From Lophium mytilinum (taxonomy: Eukaryota), in contig MU004198.1 of assembly GCA_010093605.1 (NCBI GenBank), forward strand, positions 436,726 to 500,725: 64,000 nt of DNA. The letters run 5' to 3'. Positions 34,050 to 61,525 of the stretch are shown here, piece by piece (position 1 is the stretch's first letter; every line of letters begins with the position of its first letter). Under the pieces are notes generated by a model that was given only the letters and a program-made list of their open reading frames with translations, did no database searches and was not told the origin of the DNA. Made by a program: the position numbers and the translations under genes.

Positions 34050-35003
34050 ATGTACAGCAACACGAGAGCTCTGAAGAAGGAGCGCCGTGACCACATGTGT
34101 CTCCAACGACGGTCGCTTCGACTATGTTCTTCGGCTTCAACGAAAGCTTCCCAACGGGCCCGCTACCCTCTTCGATCTCAGGAGCATCTAGAGCAGCTCT
34201 TGAAGGCGCTCAAATCCCAACACCTGGCCGTGGGTTCCGGAGACGTGGGAAATGGAAAGGACGAACGTTCCCTTGACTCAGACATGGAGATAGATGTGGC
34301 AGCTACGGACCCCAAACTCCCCTCCAAACCCTTCCCCTTCTTCGCTCTCCCCGCCGAACTCCGCAACGAAATCTACGCCCACCACGCCGCTACCGAAAAC
34401 ACCGTCACCGTCGCCATGCGCCGCTCCCGCGTCTCCGAAGACTGGCACGCCGGCTACAAGCCGCTCCTCCCCAAACCTCCCGCGCTGCTCCAAGTCTGCC
34501 AACAAGCCCGCACAGAGTACTTCCCCATCTGGGTCTCCCAGACTGAGTTCACGCTCGGCCTCGCCTCCGACAGCAGCATCGAGGTGGTGAAGATGTGGCT
34601 AGAGTGGATCCGACCGTTCGCGGGCTACCTCAATCAGATGAGCTTTATCCTCCGGGGCGAGAAGTGGACGGAGGGGCGGAGCGATCTGCCACCACATGGG
34701 TGGATTGAGATGGTTTATGATGGGTGGGTGGAGTATTGGTTTGACTTTAGGAAGGGTGTGGCTGATGGGGATTTGATCTATGTGGATGGAGAGAGATTGG
34801 AGTATTCGGCGCCGGCGGACAGATCGGAGATGATTGGGAAGGAGAGGGAGGCGTTCGGAGTAACTGTTGAGGAGATGCGGAAGAAACGCCAAGCAGGAAA
34901 GTTGGTGGTCGGGGATGTCAAGAAGCTAATCAATGCGCTGGTCAGGGATCATGGGCATTTGGTGGAGACACGCGTTCTGAGGAGGCGATTTGGGCCGTGG
35001 TAA
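34050..35003 (+). CDS. F-box-like family, paralog 1 (start uncertain)
   Basis: FFALPAELRNEIY; PALLQVCQQARTEY; TEFTLGLAS; GWVEYWFDF; ends RRRFGPW. Confidence 0.8.
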   Translation: MYSNTRALKKERRDHMCLQRRSLRLCSSASTKASQRARYPLRSQEHLEQLLKALKSQHLAVGSGDVGNGKDERSLDSDMEIDVAATDPKLPSKPFPFFALPAELRNEIYAHHAATENTVTVAMRRSRVSEDWHAGYKPLLPKPPALLQVCQQARTEYFPIWVSQTEFTLGLASDSSIEVVKMWLEWIRPFAGYLNQMSFILRGEKWTEGRSDLPPHGWIEMVYDGWVEYWFDFRKGVADGDLIYVDGERLEYSAPADRSEMIGKEREAFGVTVEEMRKKRQAGKLVVGDVKKLINALVRDHGHLVETRVLRRRFGPW

Positions 35004-35896
35004 TTACTCTATCGAAGCGGCTAGAGATGTGAGTTCAAGAAGCTCGGAAGCTAGGCACCATGGTGTGGAGACTATCTACTAATGAGTCTTGCGCCCCCTC
35101 GATATGCTTCCTAGTCTACCTCATTTTCAGACCTATCACTATCTTAGTGTTAGCGTACCTATATTACGTTCATTGTTTTTCTATACTCCCCGTCACTCTC
35201 ACGATTCTCATTATCTGCGAACATTGTACAACACGCATCGGATGGATTCAACATAAGCTCCGTTGACGTTCGCTGTATCTCCTTCTATTCACAATACGAC
35301 GTCTCGGACTCTTTCGATGTGTTTCATCTTTGGCTAAAGCACCTAATGAGCTTCTTTTCTCAAAATCACGGAACCAACACGCAAATACGAAATCTTTGAG
35401 TTGTTTCCGGCTTGAACAGCTTTGAAAGATGTCATGGAGGGCGAGGGCACGGCCTTTCTATGCGACAGTGCGTGATTCAGCGACTCGTTGGCTGTGACCA
35501 ACGTTTCCTTATACCATCAAGATGCATCAACTATACCTCCGCCAGATAACGGCGAGCCCATTGAATAGTCAAAACACAATGTGCCTTCGGTGGGCAGGGA
35601 ATGACAGAAACCTCGATATCATTTCTACACATTCACCTAGATGCATTCAATGTCTACGCACAGCGGCACATTGAAGGATCACTTTCACGACCCGGGAGGA
35701 GTGAAAGCAACATTGTAGAGATGCGTTCTCCTGCATTTAATTCGGTCCCTGACCAGACCTTCTCGTCATCAGAAATCTCCTCCCACTGCCCCCCAGTGTA
35801 CCAGTCAATACCTCTTTGGGGTCTCATCTTTGGGATCCCATTTCTCATCTTCAACCTCGGATTTCCTCTCTATCCAAAGCCCCCGATACTACAAAG

Positions 35897-36835
35897 ATGC
35901 CGAAAGCAGATTCGTCGCTAGGCAAGCAACAAGCCCGCTTGTCCAAGCGGGCGGGACCATACCCACCACGGGCTGGAAAGAAAACTGTCCATAAGCCGCT
36001 GCCCGAGTTCAAATTTGAGGACTCAGATTCCGAAGACATGTTCATCGATGGCGACATCTCTTCAGATGAAGACGAGGAAGGCTCAAGCGTAACGAGCACC
36101 CAAGAAGCCACCACGAGCCCTTACGAGCTTCAGTTGTTCTATGGCCTCCCACGTGAAATACGTGACATAGTCTACAGTTTTGTCGCAGAAGGCGAAGCCG
36201 AGGAGACTGTTACGGTGGGCCCTATCGAGAACACCGTTCGGGTCGGTCTGCAGCGAGACGCATACCATGACACTGCGTCTGCCGGTTACTACCTAGGGAT
36301 GCCAAAGGTCCCGGCCTTGCTTCAGACCAGCCGCCAGGGACGGGAAGAGTATGGCCCCGTTTGGGCTGCGTCCACTGAGTTCATGCTCGGTCTTGCCTCA
36401 GAAGGAGGCCTGAAGACTGTCCGTGAGTGGTTGAAGACCATCGACCCATGGGTCAATAACATCACCAAGCTGAGCTTCGTGCTGCGGAATCGGAATTGGG
36501 AAGATGACGAGGCCGACGTCGAACAGCACGACATGGCCGTCTATACGGGTTGGGTTGAGTACTGGCTCGACCTCAATCCCCGGACACTTGTCGCCGATGG
36601 GAATCTGATCCAAGTCGTTGGAGAGAAGATCTACTACCCCGACGACACATCAAAGCTGGTTCAGACTCATGTCTCTGCGTTCCAGCAATTAGCTGTAGGG
36701 CTGCTGGAGAAGAAGGCCGATAGCACACTTCAAGTGAAGGATCTGGAGGAGCTGATCGAGAAGCTCCTCGAACTTCACGGGAACTACATCGCTCGGGACA
36801 AGACCATTCTTCGACGGCATTTCGGGCCTTGGTAA
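35897..36835 (+). CDS. F-box-like family, paralog 2
   Basis: MPK start; FYGLPREIRDIVY; PALLQTSRQGREEY; TEFMLGLAS; GWVEYWLDL; ends RRHFGPW. Confidence 0.85.
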   Translation: MPKADSSLGKQQARLSKRAGPYPPRAGKKTVHKPLPEFKFEDSDSEDMFIDGDISSDEDEEGSSVTSTQEATTSPYELQLFYGLPREIRDIVYSFVAEGEAEETVTVGPIENTVRVGLQRDAYHDTASAGYYLGMPKVPALLQTSRQGREEYGPVWAASTEFMLGLASEGGLKTVREWLKTIDPWVNNITKLSFVLRNRNWEDDEADVEQHDMAVYTGWVEYWLDLNPRTLVADGNLIQVVGEKIYYPDDTSKLVQTHVSAFQQLAVGLLEKKADSTLQVKDLEELIEKLLELHGNYIARDKTILRRHFGPW

Positions 36836-37800: not shown

Positions 37801-38997
37801 ATGCCTAAAGTCAATACTTCAATCCGCACGTCCAACGGACCGTCTCCTGTCGGCCGTCGACCTCCCGCTCGTGTGTCCCCATATCCCTCGCGAACGGAGA
37901 CCCATTCACGACAAGCAATGGTTTCTTCCCGTCGGCGATCAGACGAAAAGGACACATGCGTCAATCCCGCCCTCTCTGACGGTTCTGAATCGGAGGAGAT
38001 GGTCATTGCCACCACGGAAACAAGCCAAATCAAAACTGAAATCGCCTTCAACGCATGGGAATCGGATGATGAAGACATGTTCGTGGATCCTGTGGAGTCG
38101 GACGACGAAGACATGTTCGTGGATCCTGGGGAGTCAGATGACGACGATATGTTCGTTGATTCTGTGAAGTCTGACGCAGTGTCGCGGAACGGTAGGATGA
38201 TTCCAATGATCGTTCTCGAAGACGAAAAAGAGGTTCTGGAGGGCACACCAGAGGATCGTCTCAATCTTAACGATGTATCCGGCTTCTTCAAGCTGCCGCG
38301 CGAAGTCCGAGATCAGATCTATGGCTATGTGGCGGATGGTAGAGAAGAGGATACCGAGTACGTGTGCAAGCAGAGCGACAAGTACCGCGATGCCCGTCTC
38401 CCGCCAGTCCCGCCTCTCTTGCAAGTTTCTCGGAGGACACGAGCCGAGTATCTTCCAGTTTACGTCTCGAAGACTGAGTTTGTACTCGGCCTCGCCTCAG
38501 TGGACAGCCTGAAGATCGTCAACAGATGGCTGAACTTCATCAAACCAGAGATCACCGAGCTCACAAAGATGAGCTTCATCCTACGCAAGTGCGACTGGAA
38601 TCGCAAGAACTTCGTCCCCCACCCAGAAGACCGCCCCCGGCCTCGATGGTCAATCTGGGCAGAGTGCTACGCCCACACATCCGACATGGACGACCACCCC
38701 GACTCCCATTATAGCGGCTGGGCGGAGTATTGGGTGGACTTCAAGCAAGAGGTAGCAGACGGCAATCTTATCCAGGTTGTCCAAAAAGACCTCTACTACC
38801 ACGAGACGACTTCTGGCGCTATCCAGAACGAGCTTGCGCTCTTTAAACAACAAGCCGCGCCTATGTTTCTCAAGCGGAAGGATGAGACATTGGCGCTAGA
38901 GGACATTCAGAACCTGATCAATGCGCTCTTGGAGATGCACGGAAATTACGTGGTTAAAGAGTATGAAATTTCTCGGTGGTACTTTGGATCTTGGTAG
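37801..38997 (+). CDS. F-box-like family, paralog 3
   Basis: MPK start; FFKLPREVRDQIY; PPLLQVSRRTRAEY; TEFVLGLAS; GWAEYWVDF; ends RWYFGSW; TATA-like element at ~37671. Confidence 0.85.
   Translation: MPKVNTSIRTSNGPSPVGRRPPARVSPYPSRTETHSRQAMVSSRRRSDEKDTCVNPALSDGSESEEMVIATTETSQIKTEIAFNAWESDDEDMFVDPVESDDEDMFVDPGESDDDDMFVDSVKSDAVSRNGRMIPMIVLEDEKEVLEGTPEDRLNLNDVSGFFKLPREVRDQIYGYVADGREEDTEYVCKQSDKYRDARLPPVPPLLQVSRRTRAEYLPVYVSKTEFVLGLASVDSLKIVNRWLNFIKPEITELTKMSFILRKCDWNRKNFVPHPEDRPRPRWSIWAECYAHTSDMDDHPDSHYSGWAEYWVDFKQEVADGNLIQVVQKDLYYHETTSGAIQNELALFKQQAAPMFLKRKDETLALEDIQNLINALLEMHGNYVVKEYEISRWYFGSW
38059..38166 (+). repeat. 36-nt coding tandem repeat x3 (ESDDEDMFVDPV)
   Basis: Three consecutive 12-aa acidic units in paralog 3. 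Confidence 0.9.
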
Positions 38998-40117: not shown

Positions 40118-41008
40118 ATGCCAAAACTTCAGTCTTCCGTTCGCAAAGTCGAGCGCGACGTGCCATACCCATCCGGCGCAGAACCCCGTTCTAAACGCGC
40201 GACCACCCACAAGTCGTTGAAATCCGATAAAAAACGTATGACCGTCAACCATGCCGCATCTGCAGTGCCCATGAAAGTGCGCGCTCGCAAGGCGGATGAA
40301 ATCATCCGGAAGTACCAGACGCCAGGGTGGCTCACGAAACTCAACGACGACTCACGCTTCTTCCACCTCCCGCGCGAGGTCCGGGATATGATCTACGGCT
40401 GCGTGGCGGTTTCTGACGAAGAGGGCACTACATACGTCTGCCTCCAGGATGACAACAAAATCCGTCTTCCAACAGTTCCAGGCGCGCTTCAGGTCTCTCG
40501 ACGGATGCGATCGGAGTACTTCCCAGTCTATGTCGCCAACACCGAGTTCGTGCTAGGTCTGGCGTCCATCAACAGCATCAAGGTCGTGGAACGCTGGCTG
40601 GATTTCATCGAACCCGAGGTCACGGAGTTGAACCAGATGAGCCTGATTCTGCGAAACACGAAGTGGTTGCGCGGCGTTCTGTCCCCCAATGCAGACGTGC
40701 CCGAACGCGAGGAGTCCTACTACAGCGGCTTCGCAGAATTCTGGGTCAACTTCAAGGAATCTATCGCTGATGGTAATCAGATCCAGTCGGTAGGCAAGGA
40801 GCTCTTCTACCATGACCGCACTTCGCGGTACGTCCACCAGGAGGTCCAGCAGTTCCAGCAGATGGCTGAGGAGCTTCGTGTCCATCGAGCTGCAGAGACG
40901 TTGACGGTGTCCCATGTGCGCCGACTCATCGATACGCTACTTGAGATCACTGGGAGGTTCATCGTCCAGGAAGCCCACATCAACCGCGCGAACTTTGGCC
41001 CTTGGTAA
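40118..41008 (+). CDS. F-box-like family, paralog 4
   Basis: MPK start; FFHLPREVRDMIY; PGALQVSRRMRSEY; TEFVLGLAS; GFAEFWVNF; ends RANFGPW; TATATAAA at ~39965. Confidence 0.85.
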   Translation: MPKLQSSVRKVERDVPYPSGAEPRSKRATTHKSLKSDKKRMTVNHAASAVPMKVRARKADEIIRKYQTPGWLTKLNDDSRFFHLPREVRDMIYGCVAVSDEEGTTYVCLQDDNKIRLPTVPGALQVSRRMRSEYFPVYVANTEFVLGLASINSIKVVERWLDFIEPEVTELNQMSLILRNTKWLRGVLSPNADVPEREESYYSGFAEFWVNFKESIADGNQIQSVGKELFYHDRTSRYVHQEVQQFQQMAEELRVHRAAETLTVSHVRRLIDTLLEITGRFIVQEAHINRANFGPW

Positions 41009-41450: not shown

Positions 41451-42764
41451 TTAGTTAGCCTTTACTTCAGGAAGCCCATATGTCGCTGCTAGCCTCCTAT
41501 TCAGATGATCTTGTGCCGTCATAACCTCGTCTGCGCCCCCAGTCCCGCCTCCGTAGCCAACTTTGAGCTTCTGATCCTCGCCTTCAGCGCTATGAAACCC
41601 TTTCACTTTCGCACTAGGCACAGGCACTAAGCGAGCTTCATCAAGAGGATGGCAAAAGTATGCGATACTGTACCGGTCCTCGCTAGACTTACCTTCCTCT
41701 GGCTGGGGAAAGATGACGCGATGGACTGTGCTTTTTAGAAGTCCGTTTGTCCAATAGGATAGAAGGTCTCCGATGTTGACGAGGATAGGTGGATTGGGTT
41801 CAGATGTTGGATTGACGGGAACGGGCGCCCATTCGTTCGATGCGGTGAGAATTTCTAGGCCGGGTTGAGATGGGAGCTGGAAGAGGAGTGTAACGCTTCC
41901 ATAGTCTGAGTGGGCGCCTGCTCGGATATCGGTCTGATCTGGTGGTGATGGCACAGAGGGGTACTGCCATGGTTAGCAACCTCCGATATAATGATGATGC
42001 CGCGCAAGCATGTCTTACGTATAACAAGCGCAGTATGCTTCCAGACGGGCCTTTGGCTCTGTTGTGCCGCTCAGAGAACCACTTATCTCCGCCGTCTGCA
42101 GAAGGAATCTCTAGGGCGGCAGCAAAGAGGTCCATGATTTTGTTGCAAAGATCGTGGCATTGATCTATGAATTGGGAGATCCGAGACTCTCCTTCGACGA
42201 GAGGTGCTGGTAATGGCTGATTGGCTTTGCCGTTACTGAATTCGCCGATATTGAAGGCCCTACTAGAGTTTAGGTATGAAGTGGAATTGGAAATGCCAAA
42301 ACGCTGACTCTTTGAAATCACCTCTCTGTCAACGAGTTAGTCTTTGGGCTAGTACAAGATTCAGATGTAATGAATCAAGATGATAGATAGTATGACAAAT
42401 GATGGGATCAAGACCTGCTGATGTGCTGGATCGAGTGTCTCAGTATGCATTGACAACCATCCTCGATTCTTCCCAGACTTGCTTGAGTTGATCGAGCATG
42501 TTGCTTTCACTTTCGTTGGCGATTGGAAGAAAGTGTGCGACTGAAGTACTCAGCATTTGGCACTGCTCACTCGGATACATAACGAAGTCCTACTAGGTCA
42601 AAAATAGCCTGTATATCTGCTGGTGGAATGCCAACATCGTGGTTCTTGACGAAGACGAAACCGAATGTTGACGCGGCGTTGAGAATGTTTCTCGCGGTCT
42701 CTGATGAAGGAGATGATATGTCAATGACAGGTATGTCCGTGCTACTGGTTGTTACAGCCGCCAT
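41451..42764 (-). CDS. 2OG-Fe(II) oxygenase (IPNS/DIOX_N-like), multi-exon
   Basis: IPVIDIS..AASTFGFVFV; RAGAHSDYGSVTLLFQ; LVNIGDLLSYWTNGLLKSTVHRV; RYSIAYFCHP. Confidence 0.9.
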
Positions 42765-43060
42765 CTCGATTATATTTGGGGAAAGGAATATTAAGGCTGT
42801 GGTGTCGAGGTGCGAGGTTATCGTGGAACTGCACACAAGGACGTGTGGGCTGACCAGCGCATCTGGCGCATTTAGTCAACCGTAAAAGCTTAAGCTCAAC
42901 ATCTACGCCGGCGCACCTCCTCACAAACACGACTGCGAAACCGCAAACCTGACCATTGTTGTCGCATCTCAAAGGCATTGAGGTGGCCTACGTTTGCAGG
43001 AGCTGCCGGTCTCCTTCTTAACACCACCGTCCTCGGTCGTTGCCCCACCCAACACTCACC

Positions 43061-45518
43061 ATGATCCGCGACTTCGACAACTGGAACACCAGCCTGAGTG
43101 AGGTCGCAGCGTTGGACGAGTTTGCCAATTGTACAATTGCTATAGAGGCGGCAGATTATATCACCAACCATCTTCTCATCCACTCATGGAAGGAACCGCT
43201 TCTCCCAGCCCTCGGCGGCCTCCCCTTTGGCATGAAACATCGCGTTGAGTCCGACCTTGAGAAATTCAAAGCCTTCCACATTCAGCCCATCTTCGTATTC
43301 AGCGGTCTTGCCTTTGGCGAGAAGGAAGACGTCTTCCGCGTGTCCGAGATTGCTGCTGAGGTCAACGAGCAAGCCTGGGACTTGTACGACAAACACCAGG
43401 CCGAACTTGCTGTTGCGAGATTTGGGGAGTCAAGTAAGAGCGCGAGGTATCCTACATGTGGATGTGCATAGCTGATAATAGCATAGCTTCTGTTAAAGCA
43501 GAGGATCTATTCCGCGCCTTTCAATCTATCCTACACGAACACAAGATTCCTTTCCAGGTTGCGCCATACAGCGCCTGGGCTCAGGTATGCCTTCTCATTG
43601 TCCACTGGCCTGCTACAGCCTATTAACTCCTTTGCAGCTAGCCTATCTCGAAAAGCATTGCCGTAATAGGATACATGCCATTGCTGGCTCCTCCGAACTC
43701 CTCCTCTTCGATTGCGACAAATTCATAACTAGCTTTGATTTCCCCAACGGACAGGCGAGATGGATCAAGCGGGATAAATGCATCGCAGATTTGAAGAGAT
43801 TCACTGGAAATGGCGACATCTCCGGCGAAATGTTCGTCGACGCGTGCATGCTGTCAGGGACCAATTTTCTCCCAACTTTGCCGCAGCTGAACCACGGCAA
43901 TGCTCGCGTCAAACAGCCTAAGCCACACAGTGCGATTGAGATGATGATGATGGGCCCTGGTCGCAGTGGGATTGCCGTATGCCTCCAATACCAGGACGAG
44001 CCGAGCTTCCAGCAGATCAACTATCTTGACAAGTACCGAAAGACGCGCATGGCTGTGAAGCATCACCCGATCCTCACTGACCAGGGAAAGATAGAGCCAT
44101 TGGACGCTGTAAATGTGCCGAACGACGTGCACGAGTTTATCGGTCAGCGCCTGCCAGACGAAATCTACTACTATCTATCCAAGGGCCTCATCGGGCCGCG
44201 GGTACTGAATTGGCGGACATCCGGGGAAATAGTCGAGCTGAAACCATTGGATGGCGGCGACTCGGATGAATATCGTAAGCTCGTCAGCGTTAAACTCACC
44301 CCGATGCGCACGACTGCAATCTCATTGCTCTCATATTCCCTACATCGATTCTACCAACATAAGGACTTGGCTTTGAAGTGCTACTTTGACGATGGACAAG
44401 GCGGAAAGCATACGGATAGCATTAGCATGCGAGACCTGACCGATCCTAGGCCGCTGGTTGAGAAGTGGAACGTCAAGGCTGAAGGTTCCAAAGATGAGAC
44501 GGCTAAATACCAAGGTGGTCTCCTTGGAAAAGCTATCCTAAGTCTCAAAGATGCACAATTTGGCAGCAAAACAATCACAGCGAAAAATCCCAAAGTCGTA
44601 AGTTTGAGATCTCAAAACCAAGCCGATTGCTGACAAAAGCTTAGCTCCTATCGACGAATGAGGAGATCCTTTCCAACGCTGTTTGGCGATTCTTACACTT
44701 GCGAGGCTACATCGATAGCAACCACAAGCTGACTCCTTGGGGAGAGGTGCTCGCGACCACCATTGCAGCACTTGAAGGCAACGCCGAGCTCGAAGAAGCC
44801 GCTACCATCGCCGTCGAACTTGCTCGCCTTGATCTCCTAAATGCTCGAGAAATGTTCCGGTATGGAGGTGCTCCTATGCGAGGTGAACGTAAGTGACCAA
44901 CCCAAAATGCTCCAGAAACATGACTGATGTGCCGCAGTGGTCGACAAGCGGAACAATCTACTTGTTTCCCGAGTTGCTTGCCTCGGTAATCTACGCCATA
45001 AGCCCATCGGTTTCACTGGACCACTCAGTAGGCATATGCTTGCCTATCACTCGATGACTACCGCTGTTCGTAGCACTCTTCGAGATCTTGCGGAAGTCAG
45101 CCTCACCACGATATTGCTGAGCGGCGATGCGAAACGCCCGCTATCTGATCCTTACCGACTTGGCATGGAGTAAGACTCGCCTAATTATATGACAAAGACG
45201 GAACGATTGTGCTAATTTTTACGCAGCCTTCCCTTTCTGCTACCGAACACTTGCGCACTTGGAATCGCGGTAAAGTCTTACCTCGACGAGCTTCTTGCCA
45301 AACCGGGCTTACCCGCCACTGCGGACGAAACGAAGGCTATGATCAAAGAAGACCTTGTGGCGCGCTACTTCCCTCAATGCCTGGATATCATAGAAGATCT
45401 GAAGACGGCATTCAAACTCTGGGACGCAGTCTATGCCGGTATCAAGTCCGCCGGTGACCTCGTCAAAGACAAGCAGGTCTGGAACGAGACCAACGAGTGG
45501 CTGGCTGACAGGCGTTAA
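43061..45518 (+). CDS. MKT1: Mkt1-like PIN/XPG-like post-transcriptional regulator, multi-exon
   Basis: EPLLPALGGLPF, PIFVFSGL, VAPYSAWAQLAYL, DACMLSG, PNDVHEFIGQRLPDEIYYYLSKGL, LRGYID..HKLTPWG, GFTGPLSR.MLAYHS, LGIAVKSYL; start approximate. Confidence 0.85.
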
Positions 45519-52606: not shown

Positions 52607-53698
52607 CTAAAGGTTGAGCTCGTCACCTTCGGTCTCCACGAGATCTAATAGCACCTGCCGCACGTCAATCCCGAAAGGCTGCACAGGTTGGAGCAAGTCG
52701 GCCACCTGGAACAGGTACTCCTCGCAAAGTTGGAGATGGGCAGAAGTCGACGCGAGCAATCTACGAAGCCTTCGGTCTACCTGATCTGGTTTCAATCGGC
52801 GCTCCCGAGGCTGCAGCAGTTGAAAGCGGCATAAAGGACAGCTATGACTCTGCTTCTGATCACCCAGAATCCATGCTCGCCCGCACTCAAGCCCTATTCC
52901 ATGCCCGCAGACGAGTCGAACAGCTGGGTGGACATCCGAATAGCGTTCGTAGCAGATAACGCAAATTTGCGAGTCCGATCTATCCGCATTAGTGCTATCG
53001 CAATTCATGGGCGTCGAAATATCCTCGATTCGAGGATCAGGACCCAGATTCTCCATCTCAACATCCTGCAAAACTCCTGGGACGGTGTGAGGGTTTTCAA
53101 GGACATTCCAGCAGCTTCGAATCTCGCGTTTTAGAAACCTTATGACGGTGGAGAAGTGTTGATTGGCTCCATTTTCGCGTATGGCCTTCCAAATGCCTGC
53201 TTGATCCTCGTGGCTCTCAGTTATGCAAAGATATCGAAGACCTGCGTACAAATGTCTAATATAGAGAGACACATATCGAATCGGGTCGTCTTCATTCCCG
53301 ATGGCTTCAATATCTAGAAGCTGAGCTGCTAGGATGCGTTGGATATCGCGGTTCGTGCGAGCTAGCGCTTTGTCTTCTCGGGACCATTCTAGAGAGGGAG
53401 TATCGAGAATGCGATCTACTTCTCGATGAAAGTTAGAGCCCCGTATGATGAATGCGTGGACAATTTGCTCGAACTCGAGGAATATCGATTCGACGATGTC
53501 TATGTCACCGTCTGCCATCGCTACAGTACCTTCAGACTCTTCGCTATCTTCCTCTAGCATAGCCGTGCTGCCATCATGGTTGAGATATGAACCACGACCG
53601 CCACTGATAGGCGTGCCCGTAGCGGTGATGTCGGGTGTTGCGTTCGCCCTTCCGCTAGAACTCAGCTCGCCGTTTGCGATTTCGCTTCCCACCGCCAT
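52607..53698 (-). CDS. RING-finger protein (variant, putative E3 ligase)
   Basis: CVIC..CGHGIGLEC..W..CPLC at 52829-52963; intronless. Confidence 0.75.
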   Translation of the reverse strand: MAVGSEIANGELSSSGRANATPDITATGTPISGGRGSYLNHDGSTAMLEEDSEESEGTVAMADGDIDIVESIFLEFEQIVHAFIIRGSNFHREVDRILDTPSLEWSREDKALARTNRDIQRILAAQLLDIEAIGNEDDPIRYVSLYIRHLYAGLRYLCITESHEDQAGIWKAIRENGANQHFSTVIRFLKREIRSCWNVLENPHTVPGVLQDVEMENLGPDPRIEDISTPMNCDSTNADRSDSQICVICYERYSDVHPAVRLVCGHGIGLECGRAWILGDQKQSHSCPLCRFQLLQPRERRLKPDQVDRRLRRLLASTSAHLQLCEEYLFQVADLLQPVQPFGIDVRQVLLDLVETEGDELNL

Positions 53699-54533: not shown

Positions 54534-55135
54534 ATGTGTCACTTCATTAAGTATCTTTTTGCTTGCGACCACGAGAAGCTCGAGCCTTCGACCTGTGGGA
54601 AATTCGTCTTCGTTAATGGGCATTGCGATCCAGACGACCCGCTCCTGTATAGGATCTTGAGGGAACAGACCTTCGATCGACCCTGTGGCCGCTGCGAGGA
54701 CCGAGTTCGAAAACTCCGTGAACAGGGTGATGAGTTAGAGGAGAAGGTCTGGGATGTTGCTATTCGTGAGTTTCAGACGAGTATCTACGTTCGAGCGATG
54801 TTCCCACGCACTGATCCTCGTAAAAGCCGCTTGTGCCTGCTCCAGAGGTTCCGACTGGATTCTATCCTCGCAACATTCCACAGTTCGTTTTCCTAGCGTC
54901 TGCGAAGCTCAAGAAGTTGCGCCTTCAGCTTGCATACGACACCCATCGTGTCACTAAAATAGAGCGGGAGCAAATTAAGGCTCTGGCTGAAGGTACTCTT
55001 CCGGGAATGAACCAGCAAGATCTCGAGCGAAGGAGGTCGCTTTTCCGAGAGTTTCTCGCTGACAGCGACTGGCGGAGGTGCCCCAAGTTCAAAGGGCTCA
55101 CAGTGGACGAGGTCGTCTATCAAGTGTTGCCATAG
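54534..55135 (+). CDS. Small Cys/His (putative zinc-binding) protein, ~173 aa
   Basis: MC-x8-CDH-x7-C-x9-C...CGRC; intron 54766-54845 (GTGAGT..CTGAT..CAG) joins ORFs 54534 and 54833; TATATAA at ~54388. Confidence 0.6.
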
Positions 55136-55894
55136 AAGTATCTCTTTGAGTGTACTGATGTGAGTGTTAAACCACTGTCGTATTGACCCATCGATATCTT
55201 ATGGCTTCGAAGCGTTCTCTCAGGCTTCATGCACCTTAACTTGCATTTTCTCCTGATATCTAAGACAAGTTTTATGAATATTAGAGAACCCAATCAATCT
55301 CCAGTACCCCAACAATGAGAAATGAATACTCTCAATATAAACACCAAGTTTTATCCCGTGATATAAATCTTATTGAGATCAGCCCTTGGCCCATTATATG
55401 CGTGAAGCGTGCTGGTACGCTTACATGACTGGTGCAATGAAACCATGGTACTCATCTAACGGCCCATATATATATATATATAAATATCCTTGCAGCCACA
55501 GCCACCACACAATCATCAAAAAAGCCCATTACGAGATCTTCCATATCGACAACTCTTTTACACAGTTGCAGTCCTGAGACGTAAGTTTATGCCCTCCCTT
55601 TCCGCCATGCTCCTGAATCCTCAGGCTGATTTTTGCGAACATTTTGAAGCCCCCCTCGACTCTTTGCACACCGCGCTCTTGCCCCTCGACAACAACAACA
55701 ACAACGTATGCCGATCAAAAACGACTAACGAGGATCTCAATCGCACTCACTGAAAGAAACTCGTCTGGGATTTTGATAAGGCACCGAAGCTACTCAAACA
55801 GCGGCGAACAGGTATGCATAGGCTTCTATCTAGGCATTCTATTATCTTTTTCAGCGGAGATTGACCAGTCAAAGTCCGCTAGAAAATGGGCCAA

Positions 55895-56932
55895 ATGGCT
55901 TCTGCAACTCCCCGCACTTCCTTGGACAGCTTCGCACTGCTAGATCTTCCCCGCGAGATACGCGATCTTACTTACCATTTTGCGCTCGTTCGGAATCGAC
56001 TCTATATTCGACAAGTCTGTGCTAGCAAGGATCCTATATCTCGTACGACATGGGATTCTGCAGATACCAAGAACGAGCCTCAGACGTATGGGTTGCACTG
56101 TGTTGAGGTTGCGCCTCAAGTAAATCTTCTAAGAGCCAATCGGCAGGTATATTCAGAAGCCTCCAAAGTCTTTTATTCTGAGAACATCTTTAATTTCTAC
56201 GCATACTTTGGGTCGGGTTGTCCCGAGTTTGATTCCGTGCTTGGTTTCCTCTAAGACCGTCCCAAAACCTCATTGGGCAGCATAAGATCAGTAGAATTCG
56301 TGGAATTCGGGTCTAAAGGCCGGTCACTTCGCAAAAAAGAATACGAGGTGTGGAACTCAGTTCACACAATTATGAGCCGGACAAACCTGCAGTACTTCGG
56401 GCTTCAGCTGCCCGCGCGACTAGTGCTGGAGAGTTGGGCTCGAGGGATGCAAGGTACGGACCGGATTCTTTTCATACTGCGCCTGTTGACTGCGGGAAAC
56501 AGTCCAAAGAGTTTCCGATTAAGGGTGTACAACGAACACTATCTTAACAAGGGCCCCTATATCCAGCCCATCGTGACCCTCGAGTCACCCGACGTGACGG
56601 ACGAGCTCAAACTGAGACAGTTCTGTGAGCGGATGGCTCGCGTTCTTCCACACGTATACCGTGGCTTGACACGTCGGTCGGACACATTAGGGATGAAGAC
56701 ATACATCCTAGCCAGGCGTACGAATACGTGTCGTTGCGAAAACCATTGGATTGTCCAAAACATGGTTGGATGCGACTTCAATATGAAGTACAAATCTGAC
56801 TTTCATGCTGCGACGTTGAGTTTAGCCGGGCCTAATGATTCTGGAGAACTGAACAAGAACCCGTGGATGCAGGACGACTTTGGAGGTGTTATTGGATCGG
56901 ATACCGGTGAAAATCTGCCTGACAGAATTTGA
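55895..56932 (+). pseudogene. F-box-like gene interrupted by a single in-frame TAA (56252-56254)
   Basis: LLDLPREIRDLTY; LLRANRQVYSEASKVFYSENIFNF; the same frame stays open after the stop to 56932. Confidence 0.7.
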
Positions 56933-57571
56933 CTTGGCGGAGGTTCAGGGCGAAGCTGGCCGGTATCACTTCAGCGGTACTAGGTGACGAGCCTTGGTAA
57001 ATTAATATAGCGCTATACGGCTCTCAGTCTTGATCACTCGACAAGACTGTGAGGAGTAGCCCAGCTAGCAGGATCCAGTTAAAGGGCTGCTTACTCTTAG
57101 TTGGACGGACCTTGAAATTATTTCTCTATTCTAGGAAGATCATGAGAAACTGAGCAAGGCATAAAAAAGTGCCCGTAATTCGCATCTTAGGACTGTACTG
57201 TTAGGGTCGCGATACCGTTTGCACAAAGTCGATGTCTAGTCACACGTATGAAGAAAGCCTCGTTGAGAACTCGATCACATCAATCTTCTAATCAATGCGG
57301 TCAGACTTGAGTACATTTCGTTAATTCGATCGTCAGCTACGGTACTTGAGGCGCCTTAAGGAGCTACAAGACTGGGAGGTACCCCCACTACTTCCACGAG
57401 TGATAACAGCTCTTTGGTAGGCCAGTCTCAACCCGGCTCTGGACACCGGATACTCTACCAGCCGCTCTTGCTATACAGATGCGCCCACGCCGCCGCCCAA
57501 TGCAGCCACGTAGATAATGTGCTCAAGACCGCAAACGCCCGCCGGTGCGGTAATGATTCAAACGACCCGGC

Positions 57572-59203
57572 TTACTTGTACATGATTTGGTTTCCAGATC
57601 TCAGAATCTCGCTCCCATACGTGTCCCAGAAGTATTGAAGGTTATAATCCCAGAAATCCTGAAGCTTTTGTCGCATTTCACCTATAGCAATCGTCTGCGG
57701 CGACATGTTCTTGTATGTATTCAAGACCAGATCGAACGTGCCCGAAGCCGTGAACAGATCGTCACCTATGTACCGAATGTGGTCATGTTCTGCGTCCTTC
57801 TCTAGAAGAGTGCGGATTATCGACTTCATGATAGTGAGGATGTAATTCCCAGGCAGTAGTGTAGGGAGCTCCATGTCTAAAGCCACCTGCGCTAGGATGG
57901 CCGCCCACTTCACGTGACAACTTTCGCTGGCACGGACTTGCTCGATTCTAGCTGGGAGGTCCTTGCCAGATTGATCCTTCACATGCGGGTCCGCACCATA
58001 CTCAAGCAGGAGTCTAAGAATCGAACATCCGTGCCTGATATCGCGTGCCGAGACTACCGCTACGTCTAGGTAGGTCTGGAGGTTGCCGAAGCCGAAGCAG
58101 GAGTGTTCCTGGCTGTTTGCGCTAGCGCCACCTTCTAGTAGCCTACGCACGCATTCAATCTGGGCATCGAGAGATTTGAGACTGTCTGGCCGTGGTCTCG
58201 CGATGCCAATGGAAATGGCTTTGTATAGTGTTGTCGCGCGGAAATTGTCCCCTTGGAAATTGCAGATAGTTGCTCCGAATTCCAATAAAGTGGTTGCGAT
58301 CTTCGGATTTCTGCCAGTGAGAGCGGCTTGTAGAGCCGTCTCTGAGTCGTTTCTGTGCATTGGAACCAGGTTCGGATGTACGCCAGCCTCGAGCAGGAGA
58401 CGAACCAGTGTCGGATCATCATCCTGGTTGTGCCAGGCATGATGATATAGGGCTGGTTCGTGTCCAGGGCTCAGATAGAAAGGATCGGCCCCCTTCTGAA
58501 GGAGTAGCTTGACCACTTGTGGATCTTGGGTTTGATTCAAGAACGGGAGACCCCCTTCACCTCGGGACCGTGCCCCTAGTGTAGTCCGGTGTGTAGCGTT
58601 GGCGTGATACTTCGATATAAGAGTATCAATGAGTTCGAACCTGTTCGGGTCTGGATCTCCCGTTCCCGACGCTTGGAACTTCTGCAGAGCAAACTCGAGA
58701 ATCTGCGTCGCCTCGCGTGCAGTCATGCGCCCAAGCTCTCCCGCTTTCTCGACGAACAAGAGAATGATGTCTGAAGAACTGTATCCAGTCTTTGTGGCGA
58801 TAGAAAAAAGAGGCCAGTCGTATTGGGGAACGAAGTACATCATTAACGTCCTCCAATGTGTTCCCCGATATCTCTCCACCAAACCACGGAAAGGTAGGTA
58901 CTTGAAAATATCAGCCTTAACCGCGCTAGAATTTGAGTAGTCTTCAATCCCAGTGATGCCATGGGCGAATAGGTATCGCAAGAGATGTGGCTTCCGATGC
59001 CGTACTGCCCAGCTGATTGCTGGCATTGTGGATGGCCAACCTACGTCGGATGCAGGTCGGTCAACAATGGCGCGCTTGTAAAGCTGTCCTTCCAAGAGTG
59101 AGCCGTATCGCCGGTTGGTGGCCATCAGATGCGATATAGAGCGATCATCGAGGTAGTCCCCTATGTCGAGGATCAATTCGTTCGGGAGCGCGGAGAAAGG
59201 CAT
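57572..59203 (-). CDS. F-box-like + ankyrin-repeat protein
   Basis: FSALPNELILDIGDYLD; repeats VKLLLQKGADP, VRLLLEAGVHPN, TALQAA..LLEFGA, RRLLEGGASAN, RLLLEYGADP. Confidence 0.85.
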   Translation of the reverse strand: MPFSALPNELILDIGDYLDDRSISHLMATNRRYGSLLEGQLYKRAIVDRPASDVGWPSTMPAISWAVRHRKPHLLRYLFAHGITGIEDYSNSSAVKADIFKYLPFRGLVERYRGTHWRTLMMYFVPQYDWPLFSIATKTGYSSSDIILLFVEKAGELGRMTAREATQILEFALQKFQASGTGDPDPNRFELIDTLISKYHANATHRTTLGARSRGEGGLPFLNQTQDPQVVKLLLQKGADPFYLSPGHEPALYHHAWHNQDDDPTLVRLLLEAGVHPNLVPMHRNDSETALQAALTGRNPKIATTLLEFGATICNFQGDNFRATTLYKAISIGIARPRPDSLKSLDAQIECVRRLLEGGASANSQEHSCFGFGNLQTYLDVAVVSARDIRHGCSILRLLLEYGADPHVKDQSGKDLPARIEQVRASESCHVKWAAILAQVALDMELPTLLPGNYILTIMKSIIRTLLEKDAEHDHIRYIGDDLFTASGTFDLVLNTYKNMSPQTIAIGEMRQKLQDFWDYNLQYFWDTYGSEILRSGNQIMYK

Positions 59204-59691
59204 GGTGATCCGTAGGGTTGTTGATGTTATCCAATAACCGGCTATCTAGTATGAATAGTAGGGTTTGTTGATATGTGGCTGAAGTTTAAGGTACTGGTGT
59301 GTGGGAGTGTGGGACAAGTGTGTGGAGGAAGTAAACTAGGCTGGACGAAGCGTCTTTTGTAGGCCCTGGGTATTTTTCCATCAGTGGGTGGTAACGGTGA
59401 AAGGTACCTAGGCAGGCAGCTGCTCATTGAAGCTGCAGGGTAGGCTGTGCAAGACCAATCTAGAAAACAAGTCAGTGAATGGAGAATCGCTGCCTGGGTA
59501 GCGGGTAGCAGGAGGCGTCATATGCGATCGTGAATCTAATGGATGAACCATGCCTAGCATTCACCAGCAGTAAAAGACTAGATTCCGCTGTCAACTTGGA
59601 TTTAAAGTTTTGCAAAGGCCAGCAAAGCAACTCGACCAGCACACCAAAACTACACACCGCTATCTTTTGTGGCACTTACCAGGTTTCTGCA

Positions 59692-61525
59692 ATGCCTGCC
59701 TCAGAGCCCAAGGTGTTGCTGAAAGTCCCAAAATTCTTTGATACGCCACCGCCATCCCTCTCGACGCTCCCGATCGAGTTAGTTGTCAAACTGACCGATT
59801 TTCTCGATGCTTCATCTCTTGGGCGACTCATGCGGGCAAACCAGCGCTTGAACAAGGTTCTCCAGGCGACTCTCCATGAACGGGCTATTGAGAATCGTCA
59901 ACCCTTGAATCGTCGAGCGGAACCTGCCTTAGATTGGGCAGTTCGCAATCGCAAACCCAAGCTCGTCAAATACCTCTTTGCGCATGGTATTACCGGTACA
60001 CATGGAGATCCAGGAGACTCCATGGCCTCTATAGTAGAGATCCAAGACGCTCCTCTACTAGCCGTGAATGAAGCTGTCCTACCACCAGCGCCAAATAGGT
60101 CTGTGGCACACATCTTGGAAATGGCCCCTGTATCGTATCGTCATGAGCTTCAAGTACTACTGCTCGGAGATAACCTTGTTGTTCATCGAGAAGGCGGAAG
60201 AGCTAGGTGCATACAGATCGAGTCCAAAGGAAGCTACCAAGGCGCTTGGTCGTTTGTTGACGGCGTCCCTAGTATTGGAAGCGCGTAAGGAGCGCCAGAT
60301 CCGGAAAGGCAACTACTTGGACGGCGAAGACTGCAGTAAACGGACGCTGAAGCTAGTGAAGATCCTCCTTTCCAGATACGGGGCAGACCCCAACGGACTC
60401 GGAGTGAAGCTGGACAAGGAATACCTGCGGTTTGGGTCGCAGACGTTTCCGTATCTCACGAAGGACCCACAGGTCTTCGAGCTTCTGCTAAAGTACGACG
60501 CCGACGTCAATGCGAACCACGATCATCGGGAAAGAAATCCGAAAGCTCTTCCTCTACTGACCCACGTCATTATGATTTCGGACGATGACGACGACACGCT
60601 GATCCGTATGTTGCTCGAGAAGGGCGCGAACCCGAATGCGCTCTCGGTGAATAGGCGTAAGCAGCCGTACACAGCGCTAGCCTACGCCGTGGTGACAGGA
60701 AAGTATAAGAACGCCCTGGCACTGCTTGAATATGGTGCAGGTGTCGGCGGATCCTGGAAGTGGAAAGGCGAGATTACCTCGATACCCTTCGAAGTGGTTG
60801 CACGCCACACGCGATCGAAGACTGATGAAGGTGTCAACCTACGATTCGAAGTCCTTCAACGCATCCTACAACGTAATGCCAATCCGCGTCTAAATTCCTC
60901 CTACGATGCTACTTCAAGACTAAAGGAACCTTATAGAGTCGATATACGAATGGTCGAGGCTGCATTAATGAACGGAAGTAGTCTTGCAGACGCCGTCAAG
61001 ACTATCAGCTTGCTCCTGGAGTACGGTGCTGATCCTAGGGCTAAGGATACCCAAGGGCAGACATTTATCCAGATGCTGCTCGACAACTTCGACCCGAAGT
61101 CGCCAAAAGAGCTGAATTGGTTCAAGGTCCTTGCAAAGGTGGCGGCTATGAAGGGGTGTATTGAGCTCCTTCCTGGTGACTATTTCTTGAGGTACTTTGC
61201 AGCTGGCTGGAAACAGGCACAAGCAATCGTTACTCAAGCTGGTTGGCGGCGGGTTGAAGCTACGGCTGTTCGCTGGGCCGAGGCTAGATATCCCCGGAAT
61301 GCCCTTATCGAGCTTGGCGAAGTTGTTAACAAAGAATCATGGGATCTGCTCATGACCATCGAAGAGTCTTACCGGAGCCTTCCTCTAGGTGGTGGTGACG
61401 TCGGGTCAAAGTACCGAGAGTTCTGGCGCACTCATCACCGTAGTGTGGAACGTTGTCTGTTCGAAGATGACGGCAAGGCGCCTAGGTTCTTTTTCCCTTT
61501 TCCGCCCGATTTGGAATTGATGTAG
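59692..61525 (+). pseudogene. F-box-like + ankyrin-repeat paralog, frameshifted at ~60068-60120
   Basis: LSTLPIELVVKLTDFLD..WAVRNRKP.L..YLFAHGITG in one frame; WPL..LLFIEKAEELG and ankyrin repeats in another; colinear with 57572-59203. Confidence 0.72.

What the first reader, a model, noticed from the sequence alone, without database searches (positions are those of the whole stretch)
34050..61525. 27-kb island of paralog arrays with a ubiquitin-ligase/protease theme: candidate undescribed defence or proteostasis locus
Seen: apart from the oxygenase/MKT1 pair, the 12 genes here are 7 with F-box-like LPxE(I/L/V) motifs (three different architectures), 1 RING, 3 non-secreted HExxH proteins and 1 small Cys/His protein. 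Eleven of the 12 are intronless, nine are locally duplicated, the copies are highly diverged, and two are broken. Established: F-box proteins are SCF substrate adaptors, RINGs are E3 modules, ankyrins are binding scaffolds, and birth-and-death arrays of such genes are typical of host-parasite conflict loci. Inference: an intracellular recognise/ubiquitylate/cleave system (antiviral, anti-TE, allorecognition or meiotic). A plain duplication hotspot is the alternative.
Basis: partly seen in the sequence, partly recalled or inferred. Interest (0 to 1): 0.8.

Follow-up and report, generated by a model that had tools for sequence, protein, structure and literature searches.

The report
Three neighbouring fungal paralog arrays
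A 27-kb stretch of a fungal chromosome holds three old, locally duplicated gene families (F-box-like, zinc-protease-like, F-box/ankyrin) and a RING gene, but nothing tested shows that they work together, so it reads as an ordinary duplication-prone region that happens to include a large, still unnamed protease-like family.

Summary
The region holds 4 copies of a 2EXR-type protein, 3 copies of a non-secreted HExxH protein, 2 F-box/ankyrin copies, a RING gene, a small Cys/His ORF and a DUF7730 gene. Two genes are broken: D by an in-frame TAA, C2 by a frame change that an RNA contig also carries.

The interpretation as one recognise/ubiquitylate/cleave system found no support in the tests I could run:
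- Only C1 and C2 match F-box models. The five 2EXR/DUF7730 genes share only the LPxE motif with them.
- The arrays are old (synonymous sites saturated, pN below pS). Outside proteins, two of them from Mytilinidion resinicola, are closer to A4, B1 and B3 than the window paralogs are.
- The arrays are split by two spliced, conserved genes (2OG oxygenase, MKT1).
- None of 133 scanned HExxH-family representatives carries any Pfam domain, so there is no fusion to ubiquitin-system domains.
- The RING protein found no relative in a word-based search.

The HExxH proteins belong to a large Pfam-less family (524 representatives). HExxH is invariant and the fold is weakly zincin-like.

Co-clustering in other fungal genomes could not be tested because no fungal genomes are held. 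The best reading is a duplication-prone, lineage-specific region. Interest is low to moderate.

The parts
34284..35003 (+). A1: 2EXR-type protein. The ORF opens at 34050; the 239-aa form starting at 34284 equals stored protein P0004.
   Evidence: Pfam 2EXR 30 bits against a cut-off of 24.8; 33.4 bits on the segment. P0004 is 100% identical to residues 79-317. It is 36-39% identical to A2-A4.
35897..36835 (+). A2: 2EXR-type paralog.
   Evidence: 2EXR at 15.5-18.8 bits, below the cut-off. It is 35-36% identical to A1, A3 and A4 over nearly full length.
37801..38997 (+). A3: 2EXR-type paralog with an acidic 36-nt x3.3 tandem repeat at 38058-38176. The ORF opens at 37633; the start at the MPK methionine is inferred from the alignment.
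   Evidence: Alignment A2; tandem repeat; 2EXR 19.3-22.7 bits; 46% identical to A4.
40118..41008 (+). A4: 2EXR-type paralog. Its closest outside relative is a Mytilinidion resinicola protein.
   Evidence: P0005 is 58% identical over full length, more than A3/A4 at 46%. In the ESM Atlas the neighbours are Ascomycota 2EXR/DUF7730 and automatically named 'F-box' clusters.
41451..42875 (-). Context, not part of any array: 2OG-Fe(II) oxygenase, multi-exon.
   Evidence: Pfam 2OG-FeII_Oxy 4e-17 and DIOX_N. A spliced RNA contig carries CT..AC joints.
43022..45518 (+). Context, not part of any array: MKT1, multi-exon and conserved.
   Evidence: Pfam MKT1_N 1e-37, MKT1_C and XPG_N. The RNA contig carries five GT..AG joints.
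46299..47465 (-). B1: HExxH protein (HELAH at residue 237) of a Pfam-less zincin-like family.
   Evidence: 43% identical to B2. No Pfam hit. Outside relatives are P0007 (67.5%) and the C-terminal part of P0002 (60%).
47987..49276 (-). B2: HExxH protein (HEVAH at residue 262). This copy was modelled.
   Evidence: AF2 model with pLDDT 77.3 and pTM 0.82. Weak zincin-dominated fold matches, best Z 5.1. Family search.
50233..51723 (-). B3: HExxH protein (HETAH at residue 253), a diverged copy with a C-terminal extension.
   Evidence: 25-26% identical to B1 and B2. It groups with P0008 and P0009 at SH-aLRT 98.
52607..53698 (-). RING-finger protein with an unannotated 240-aa N-terminal part. The ligand pattern is C246-x2-C249-x14-C264-x-H266-x5-C272-x12-H285-x-C287-x2-C290.
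   Evidence: zf-RING_2 33 bits against 27.3. The word-based search found only the protein itself.
54534..54896 (+). CH: small Cys/His-rich ORF of 120 aa. It has no family, and whether it is a gene is unproven.
   Evidence: No Pfam hit at E<=1. It has 7 Cys and 4 His and coding-like GC periodicity.
55886..56932 (+). D: DUF7730/2EXR-type gene interrupted by an in-frame TAA at 56252-56254.
   Evidence: DUF7730 28.8 bits against 27. Read through with X, the hit does not extend past the stop. It has no blastp similarity to the A copies.
57572..59203 (-). C1: intact F-box + ankyrin-repeat protein.
   Evidence: F-box-like 24.4 against 24.3 (28.2 on the segment), and Ank_2 1e-13. An RNA contig covers 57320-59578 colinearly.
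59692..61525 (+). C2: F-box + ankyrin paralog, head-to-head with C1, with a reading-frame change between 59998 and 60115. The ORFs are 59539-60288 and 60068-61525; the start at 59692 is inferred.
   Evidence: blastp to C1 in two frames. The sequence offers no usable intron. The RNA contig is colinear over 59680-61312 with 0 gaps.

Best explanation
This is a duplication-prone, lineage-specific stretch of a chromosome arm in a fungus whose nearest named relative in the searches is Mytilinidion resinicola.

Three unrelated, fungus-specific gene families each expanded locally by tandem or inverted duplication long ago, and the copies have since been kept mostly under purifying selection:
- Family A (plus the singleton D) consists of 2EXR/DUF7730 proteins. 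These have a short LPxE-R..IY motif followed by a family-specific C-terminal domain, and their biochemical role is unknown.
- Family B consists of cytosolic proteins of a large Pfam-less family with an invariant HExxH motif and conserved downstream Glu residues. These are most likely zinc metallopeptidases of gluzincin type (inferred).
- Family C consists of ordinary F-box + ankyrin substrate adaptors for SCF ligases. One is intact and transcribed. The other is transcribed but frame-shifted.

The RING gene and the Cys/His ORF are lineage-restricted singletons.

The genes most likely act independently of one another. The shared ubiquitin/protease flavour reflects the kinds of families that expand in filamentous ascomycetes, not a dedicated multi-gene system.

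Shown: gene content, paralogy, age of the duplicates, family sizes, absence of domain fusions, and transcription of C1 and C2. Inferred: peptidase activity of B, SCF adaptor role of C1, and independence of the families.
For: 1. Each family is a separate block with uniform orientation (A ++++, B ---, C -/+) and no interleaving. The A block is separated from the others by a spliced 2OG oxygenase and MKT1.

2. The duplications are old.
- Amino-acid identity is 25-49%, pS is 0.71-0.85 (saturated) and pN is 0.34-0.51. The rough dN/dS for A pairs is 0.20-0.26.
- No DNA-level repeats remain apart from one 36-nt coding repeat.
- Outside proteins are closer than the window paralogs: P0005 58% to A4 against 46% for A3/A4; P0007 67.5% and P0002 60% to B1 against 43% for B1/B2; P0008 49% to B3.
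- In the tree, (B1,B2) has support 100 and (B3,P0008,P0009) 98, and the two groups join at 88.

3. Family B is a large independent family. There are 524 representatives at E<=1e-3, 128 at E<=1e-10 and 5 at E<=1e-30.
- HExxH is present in 145 of the 148 listed representatives. H262, E263 and H266 are invariant in a 52-row alignment.
- 133 of the 148 were scanned. One search gave 0 of 103 with a Pfam family at E<=1e-4. One search gave 2 of 30 with only sub-threshold hits (Peptidase_M50B 18.8 against 26; DUF918 16.5 against 27).
- So there is no fusion to F-box, RING, ankyrin, NACHT or any other domain.

4. The B2 model (pLDDT 77) gives weak matches (Z 3.7-5.1) that are mostly zincins: deuterolysin 1eb6, selecase 4qhf, M1 aminopeptidase catalytic domains, M36, lugdulysin, Wss1 and SPRTN.

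5. A and D match only 2EXR/DUF7730. C1 and C2 match F-box models.

6. All ORFs show coding-type GC periodicity, and there is no strong RIP signature.

7. The flanks are ordinary genes: GDA1/CD39, eIF4E, MFS, sulfotransferase, a TauD-like ORF and a C2H2-type protein (both read by eye from the ORF translations, not scanned against Pfam), and an ADH.
Against: - Three separate arrays plus a RING gene within 27 kb is itself unusual. The motif-bearing ORFs are confined to this stretch of the window (0 of 45 ORFs outside).
- The closest outside proteins of A4 and B1 in M. resinicola are both listed with the same longest-contig length, 1,618,902. The neighbourhood may therefore be conserved, although ordinary synteny would give the same result.
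- ESM Atlas neighbours of A4 carry the automatic name 'F-box domain-containing protein', and one cluster has F-box-like_2 in 14% of its members. A remote F-box relationship of 2EXR therefore cannot be excluded.
- Independence of the families is an inference from missing links. Co-clustering across fungal genomes, co-expression and physical interaction were not testable here.
Confidence: 0.65

Rival explanations
1. The arrays, the RING gene and the HExxH proteins form one intracellular conflict system. F-box-type adaptors recognise non-self or aberrant proteins, SCF/RING ligases ubiquitylate them, and the zincins cleave them. The roles proposed were antiviral, anti-transposon, allorecognition or meiotic.
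For: - The domain theme is real in part: RING, F-box in C1/C2, ankyrins and HExxH.
- All motif-bearing ORFs of the window lie in this stretch.
- Two broken copies fit gene turnover.
- The M. resinicola relatives of A4 and B1 share a longest-contig length.
Against: - A1-A4 and D hit no F-box model at E<=10, and hhalign to the C F-box gives probability 0.55%.
- No B-family representative is fused to a ubiquitin-system domain; 133 were scanned.
- The duplicates are ancient and under purifying selection, not rapidly turning over.
- Housekeeping genes split the region.
- The RING protein found no relative in the word-based search, so it is not a conserved partner.
Confidence: 0.08
2. A partial module. 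Only some neighbours are functionally tied, for example the head-to-head C1/C2 pair with the RING gene, or the B zincins with one adaptor family. The rest are bystanders.
For: - C1 and C2 are head-to-head paralogs, and both are covered by RNA contigs.
- RING, D, C1 and C2 lie within 9 kb of each other.
Against: No test links any pair. The RING protein has no detected relatives, and the B family has no fusions. Adjacency is the only argument.
Confidence: 0.12
3. A decaying region. Most of these ORFs are relics or annotation artefacts on their way to loss and have no current function.
For: - Two of 12 genes are broken.
- RING and CH have no detected relatives or families.
- Outside relatives P0007 (190 aa), P0008 (306 aa) and the P0002 piece look truncated.
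Against: - pN is well below pS in all seven pairs compared.
- The catalytic-type motif is intact in all three B copies and invariant in the family.
- ORFs of 296-543 aa remain open despite saturated synonymous divergence.
- Coding periodicity is present.
- C1 is transcribed and intact.
Confidence: 0.1
4. Cargo of a large mobile element (Starship-like or similar) inserted into the chromosome arm.
For: - GC is slightly lower than in the left half of the window (0.47-0.53 against 0.53-0.60).
- Short dispersed 35-nt repeats at 52147-52183 and 55652-55687 break the DNA contigs.
Against: - The Pfam scans of the window ORFs found no recombinase, transposase or reverse transcriptase.
- No long terminal or inverted repeats were found.
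- The conserved MKT1 and oxygenase sit inside the region.
- M. resinicola has close relatives of A4 and B1.
Confidence: 0.03

Closest known systems
Pfam 2EXR (PF20150) and DUF7730 (PF24864), fungus-specific families of unknown function
   Same: - A1 passes the 2EXR cut-off, and A2-A4 are its paralogs just below it.
- D passes the DUF7730 cut-off.
- ESM Atlas neighbours are Ascomycota clusters carrying these families in 11-100% of members.
   Different: - The A copies have a family-specific C-terminal domain of about 150 aa ending in FGPW. It found only one outside relative in the word-based search.
- That domain has no convincing fold match: best Z 4.3 on a poor model with pLDDT 50.
[quoted passage not shown]
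F-box + ankyrin substrate adaptors of SCF ubiquitin ligases, and tandem F-box gene arrays in nematodes and plants
   Same: - C1 has an N-terminal F-box-like domain followed by ankyrin repeats.
- C1 and C2 are local paralogs with one broken copy. That pattern matches the species-specific expansion and contraction of F-box genes described for Caenorhabditis (PMC8665587 and 10.1101/2020.07.09.194670; only the search listing and abstract starts were seen).
   Different: There are only two copies here, and they are anciently diverged (29-46% identity, pS saturated). Skp1 binding is untested. A1-A4 and D are not shown to be F-box proteins.
Zincin metallopeptidases with HExxH plus a downstream Glu (gluzincin type; the motif class is recalled, not tested). 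Examples are deuterolysin M35, minigluzincins such as selecase, and Wss1/SPRTN.
   Same: - HExxH is invariant, and E279, E290 and G292 are nearly invariant.
- The model places HExxH in a long helix, H246-273.
- The weak fold matches are mostly zincins.
   Different: - No sequence match to any Pfam peptidase family or to PDB sequences.
- No Foldseek match at E<=1e-3.
- Z of at most 5.1 is in the range of a common arrangement.
- B proteins are much larger (388-496 aa), with a conserved N-terminal helical part and a C-terminal beta part.
- Activity and metal binding are untested.
RING-H2 / C3HC4 RING E3 ligase domains
   Same: zf-RING_2 at 33 bits is above the cut-off, and several other RING models match. 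Eight candidate Cys/His ligands are present.
   Different: - The usual ligand-5-x2-ligand-6 pair is replaced by a single Cys (C272) plus a distant His (H285), read directly from the sequence.
- The 240-aa N-terminal part has no family.
- No relative was found by the word-based search.

Membership tests
F-box (Pfam F-box, F-box-like, F-box_4) | Sequence match to an F-box profile at or above the curated cut-off: C1 and C2 | tested here: met
   - C1: F-box-like 24.4 bits against 24.3 for the whole protein, and 28.2 on the 50-aa segment.
- C2 is below the cut-offs (F-box_4 24.5 against 32; F-box-like 19.4 against 24.3), but it is 46% identical to C1 over this part.
F-box (Pfam F-box, F-box-like, F-box_4) | Sequence or profile match to an F-box profile: A1-A4 and D | tested here: not met
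   - No F-box model is listed for any of the five N-terminal segments at E<=10.
- hhalign against the C1/C2 F-box gives 8 aligned columns at probability 0.55%. Both profiles are thin (5 and 2 rows), so remote homology is not excluded.
F-box (functional definition) | Binding to Skp1 | not testable with these tools
   No Skp1 of this fungus is in the window, and no fungal reference sequence was available to complex prediction. No job was sent.
2EXR (PF20150) | Profile match at or above 24.8 bits | tested here: met
   A1 scores 30 bits (33.4 on the segment). A2, A3 and A4 score 18.8, 22.7 and 19.1 on segments, below the cut-off, but they are full-length paralogs of A1.
DUF7730 (PF24864) | Profile match at or above 27 bits | tested here: met
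   D scores 28.8 bits over profile positions 9-105 of 235. Read through with X it scores 27.3, and the hit does not extend beyond the stop.
RING finger E3 domain | Profile match, and eight Zn ligands in cross-brace spacing | tested here: inconclusive
   The profile test is met (zf-RING_2 33 against 27.3). The ligand spacing is non-canonical at positions 5 and 6. E2 binding and ligase activity were not tested.
Zincin metallopeptidases | HExxH on a helix plus a third zinc ligand, and the zincin alpha/beta fold | tested here: inconclusive
   - HExxH is invariant and present in 145 of 148 representatives.
- Conserved E279 and E290 are candidate third ligands.
- The fold matches are zincin-rich but weak, at Z 3.7-5.1.
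- Foldseek gave no hit at E<=1e-3, and no Pfam peptidase family matched.
Multi-gene conflict or defence locus | Recurrent co-location of the component families in other genomes | not testable with these tools
   - No fungal genome collection is held.
- The metagenome scan returned one 3.4-kb contig holding a single ORF.
- The only hint is the shared longest-contig length of the two M. resinicola proteins.

The most novel reading that the evidence does not exclude
The neighbourhood is a genuine cytosolic conflict module of filamentous ascomycetes. 2EXR/DUF7730 and F-box-ankyrin proteins act as diversifiable adaptors, and a previously undescribed large family of intracellular zincins (family B, at least 524 sequence clusters, no Pfam entry) acts as the effector arm alongside a RING ligase. 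Even without the linkage, family B alone would be a new, widespread clade of intracellular fungal metallopeptidases.
Probability: 0.07. Interest if true: 0.75.

Novelty: new member of a known kind. Interest (0 to 1): 0.3.

Why it matters
If the genes did form one system, it would be a new type of eukaryotic intracellular defence coupling ubiquitin adaptors to dedicated proteases. Nothing tested points that way.

What remains useful is more modest:
- Family B is a sizeable, Pfam-less family with an invariant HExxH motif and a confident model. It has 524 representatives at 50% identity. ESM Atlas neighbours are Ascomycota clusters. It deserves a family definition and a biochemical test.
- The 2EXR/DUF7730 'LPxE-R..IY' domain is often labelled F-box by automatic naming, but it did not behave as an F-box in the profile tests made here. 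That is a caution for genome annotation.

Tried and rejected
- Whole genome: none is held, so genome-wide family counts and neighbour statistics could not be made.
Names and taxa of the B-family representatives therefore remain unknown. Only ESM Atlas taxa (Ascomycota) are available.
- Metagenome scan for B relatives with flanks. The 52-row alignment was too diverse. The 3-row alignment gave one 3.4-kb contig with a single long ORF and no neighbours, so it was useless for co-clustering.
- RNA evidence. No listed holder is on record as RNA. Run X3 (RNA by guess, but its contigs are spliced at MKT1 and the oxygenase) has no contig over B1-B3, RING, CH or D. This lack of cover is not evidence on expression.
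- PDB sequence search with the B profile gave only chance-level rows at E about 0.8.
- Foldseek against PDB and against viral models gave nothing at E<=1e-3.
- The Tox-MPTase3 lead from the ESM Atlas (score 0.91, 12% of one cluster) was not borne out. No Pfam Tox-MPTase hit was found in B1-B3 or in the 133 scanned representatives. That family is bacterial according to PMC3482391 (passages read).
- The A4 structure model was poor (pLDDT 50, N-terminal 150 residues below 50). Its VIA search gave at most Z 4.3 with unrelated proteins, so it yields no fold assignment and cannot test F-box likeness.
- Earlier findings of the scan: nothing on this genome or on look-alike stretches. The word search returned only viral or phage paralog arrays that do not bear on this case.
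- Literature searches found no description of 2EXR/DUF7730 function, of the B family, or of such a locus. Supplements were not consulted.
- Complex prediction was not used. The report claims no binding, and no Skp1 sequence was available.
- Intron explanations for the C2 frame change were rejected. The candidate GT..AG spans are only 35-42 nt, and the RNA contig is unspliced there.

Full report
**What is there**

The window is eukaryotic and fungal in character. No whole genome is held for it. Read with the standard code, the region 34-61.5 kb contains the following.

| Gene | Coordinates | Strand | Identity |
|---|---|---|---|
| A1 | 34050/34284-35003 | + | 2EXR-type |
| A2 | 35897-36835 | + | 2EXR-type |
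| A3 | 37633/37801-38997 | + | 2EXR-type |
| A4 | 40118-41008 | + | 2EXR-type |
| oxygenase | about 41451-42875 | - | 2OG-Fe(II) oxygenase, multi-exon |
| MKT1 | about 43022-45518 | + | MKT1, multi-exon |
| B1 | 46299-47465 | - | HExxH protein |
| B2 | 47987-49276 | - | HExxH protein |
| B3 | 50233-51723 | - | HExxH protein |
| RING | 52607-53698 | - | RING finger |
| CH | 54534-54896 | + | 120-aa Cys/His-rich ORF |
| D | 55886-56932 | + | DUF7730-type, in-frame TAA at 56252-56254 |
| C1 | 57572-59203 | - | F-box + ankyrin |
| C2 | 59539/59692-61525 | + | F-box + ankyrin, head-to-head with C1 |

Pfam results:
- 2EXR for A1 at 30 bits (cut-off 24.8); sub-threshold 2EXR for A2-A4.
- DUF7730 for D at 28.8 bits (cut-off 27).
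- zf-RING_2 for the RING gene at 33 bits (cut-off 27.3).
- F-box-like plus ankyrin repeats for C1; weaker F-box and ankyrin hits for C2.
- Nothing for B1-B3 or CH.

The flanks hold ordinary genes: GDA1/CD39, eIF4E, an MFS transporter, a sulfotransferase and an alcohol dehydrogenase. They also hold a TauD-like ORF and a C2H2-type protein. Those two were read by eye from the ORF translations and were not scanned.

**Check of the observation**

- Paralogy (blastp). A copies are 35-46% identical. B1/B2 are 43% and B3 is 25-26% to either. C1/C2 are 46% over the F-box part and 29% over the ankyrin part.
- tblastn of all island proteins against the whole window finds no extra copy or fragment.
- LPxE[ILV] is present in A1-A4, D, C1 and C2.
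- Among stop-to-stop ORFs of at least 150 aa, the motif occurs in 7 of 18 inside the region and 0 of 45 outside. One of the seven is an MKT1 exon, so the bare motif is not diagnostic. HExxH occurs in 3 of 18 inside and 0 of 45 outside.
- None of the proteins has a hydrophobic N-terminus or a membrane-like segment by a simple hydropathy check.
- The D stop is a single TAA.
- The C2 frame change lies between 59998 and 60115. The only GT..AG spans there are 35-42 nt. An RNA contig is colinear over 59680-61312 without a gap, so the break is carried in the transcript.

The region is not one uninterrupted island, because the conserved oxygenase and MKT1 separate the A array from the rest.

**Are the LPxE genes F-box genes?**

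Only C1 and C2 match F-box models. On 75-110-aa N-terminal segments at E<=10, A1-A4 and D list only 2EXR and DUF7730 (D adds a chance-level DUF3928 hit) and no F-box model.

A profile-profile comparison of the A/D segments with the C1/C2 F-box aligned eight columns, the LPxE motif itself, at probability 0.55%. Both profiles are thin, so remote homology is not excluded.

ESM Atlas neighbours of A4 are Ascomycota clusters. Some are automatically named 'F-box domain-containing protein'. 2EXR, DUF7730 or F-box-like_2 occur in minorities of their members.

The only paper passage found on 2EXR says it came from an automatic cluster, is mostly predicted unstructured, and has two ExR motifs of possible importance (PMC9621593, passages read).

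My model of A4 was too poor to test the fold (pLDDT 50). Its search gave nothing above Z 4.3.

**The HExxH family**

A word-based search with B2 found only the protein itself and a piece of a Mytilinidion resinicola gene model.

A full HMMER search with the B1-B3 profile found 524 representatives at E<=1e-3, 128 at E<=1e-10 and 5 at E<=1e-30. The conserved core covers profile positions about 90-350.

- 145 of the 148 listed representatives keep HExxH.
- In a 52-row alignment H262, E263 and H266 (B2 numbering) are invariant. E279, E290, G292, F345, T349 and W350 are nearly so.
- Of the 148, 133 were scanned against Pfam. One search gave 0 of 103 with a family at E<=1e-4. One search gave 2 of 30 with only sub-threshold, chance-level hits. 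Fifteen were not scanned.
- There is therefore no Pfam family for this group and no domain fusion of any kind.
- ESM Atlas puts B2 among 29 Pfam-less Ascomycota clusters at scores up to 0.97.

The AlphaFold model of B2 is fair (pLDDT 77.3, pTM 0.82). Foldseek finds nothing at E<=1e-3 in PDB or BFVD. The exhaustive VIA search gives only weak matches (best Z 5.1). These are dominated by zincin peptidases: deuterolysin, selecase, M1 aminopeptidase catalytic domains, M36, lugdulysin, Wss1 and SPRTN.

I read this as a probable zincin-like metallopeptidase family of gluzincin type. The motif class is recalled and was not tested, and membership in any named peptidase family is not shown.

**Age and history of the arrays**

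- Synonymous sites are saturated in all seven pairs compared (pS 0.71-0.85). pN is 0.34-0.51. The rough dN/dS for A pairs is 0.20-0.26, and is unreliable at this divergence.
- DNA-level repeats are absent apart from a 36-nt coding repeat in A3.
- Outside proteins are closer than the window paralogs: P0005 of M. resinicola is 58% identical to A4 (A3/A4 46%); P0007 67.5% and P0002 60% to B1 (B1/B2 43%); P0008 49% to B3.
- A tree was built from B1-B3 and 49 of the 52 representatives P0008-P0059. Three shorter than 300 aa were dropped. (B1,B2) has SH-aLRT 100, (B3,P0008,P0009) has 98, and the five join at 88.
- The copies therefore arose locally within one subfamily, before the split from the species that carry these relatives. 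These are old, retained duplicates, not a fast birth-and-death array.
- The A profile found only one outside relative, so copy number may differ between species (word-based search, limited sensitivity).
- The RING protein found no relative at all by the same kind of search.

**Transcripts**

Run X3 is labelled RNA only by guess. Its contigs carry five GT..AG joints in MKT1 and CT..AC joints in the minus-strand oxygenase, and the DNA run X1 lacks these joints. X3 therefore behaves as RNA.

Its contigs cover C1 (57320-59578) and C2 (59680-61312) colinearly. One contig also carries a 60-nt CT..AC joint at 61312/61373, inside the C2 reading frame. On the minus strand this reads GTAAGA...AG, which suggests an antisense spliced transcript.

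**Can the families be linked?**

The decisive test is recurrent co-location in other fungal genomes, and it could not be run:
- No fungal genome collection is available.
- The one metagenome contig recovered holds a single ORF.

The only hint is that the M. resinicola relatives of A4 and B1 are listed with the same longest-contig length. Ordinary synteny would produce the same result.

Against linkage stand four points: no domain fusions in the B family, the failure of A and D to behave as F-box proteins, the RING gene having no detected relatives, and the great age of the duplicates together with the housekeeping genes in the middle.

**Verdict**

The best-supported reading (confidence about 0.65) is a duplication-prone, lineage-specific region in a relative of Mytilinidion. 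Three unrelated fungus-specific families expanded there independently.

The integrated ubiquitin/protease system remains possible at under about 10%. A partial module is possible at about 12%.

The most useful by-product is the delineation of family B as a large, unnamed, probably zincin-type intracellular family.

Five literature searches found no description of it or of such a locus.

Noticed in passing
window 61313-61372: An RNA contig skips 60 nt with CT..AC ends inside the C2 reading frame. On the minus strand this reads GTAAGA...AG with a TTAAC branch-like site, so a spliced antisense transcript seems to overlap the 3' end of C2.
   Followed up: partly
window 52147-52183 and 55652-55687: Two short (about 35 nt) sequences in intergenic DNA recur with 2-3 mismatches on several other contigs of the DNA run, and on RNA contigs. 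The assemblies of the run break there. They are a small dispersed repeat or a shared regulatory motif.
   Followed up: no
window 38058-38176: A3 carries 3.3 tandem copies of a 36-nt unit encoding an acidic (E/D)SDDEDMFVDP-type repeat. A2 has one related copy at 36019-36054.
   Followed up: no
window 43497-44633 (MKT1 exon): MKT1 also contains LPDEI, a chance LPxE[ILV] match in an unrelated conserved protein. The bare motif is therefore not diagnostic.
   Followed up: yes
protein P0002 (Mytilinidion resinicola gene model): The B1-like sequence (60% identical to B1 residues 5-107) forms the C-terminal end of a gene model that is otherwise an amino-acid permease. This is probably a merged or truncated model, or a remnant of the B1 relative next to a permease gene.
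   Followed up: partly
L001 878-3412: A metagenome contig encodes a protein of more than 845 aa. A B-family domain (HELAH, conserved N-terminal core motifs) follows a long low-complexity, repeat-rich N-terminal region. The family therefore also occurs with long disordered extensions.
   Followed up: no
window 23120-25327: A 735-aa ORF with many Cys in its first half and several hydrophobic stretches in its second half has no Pfam match. It may be a lineage-specific membrane protein.
   Followed up: no
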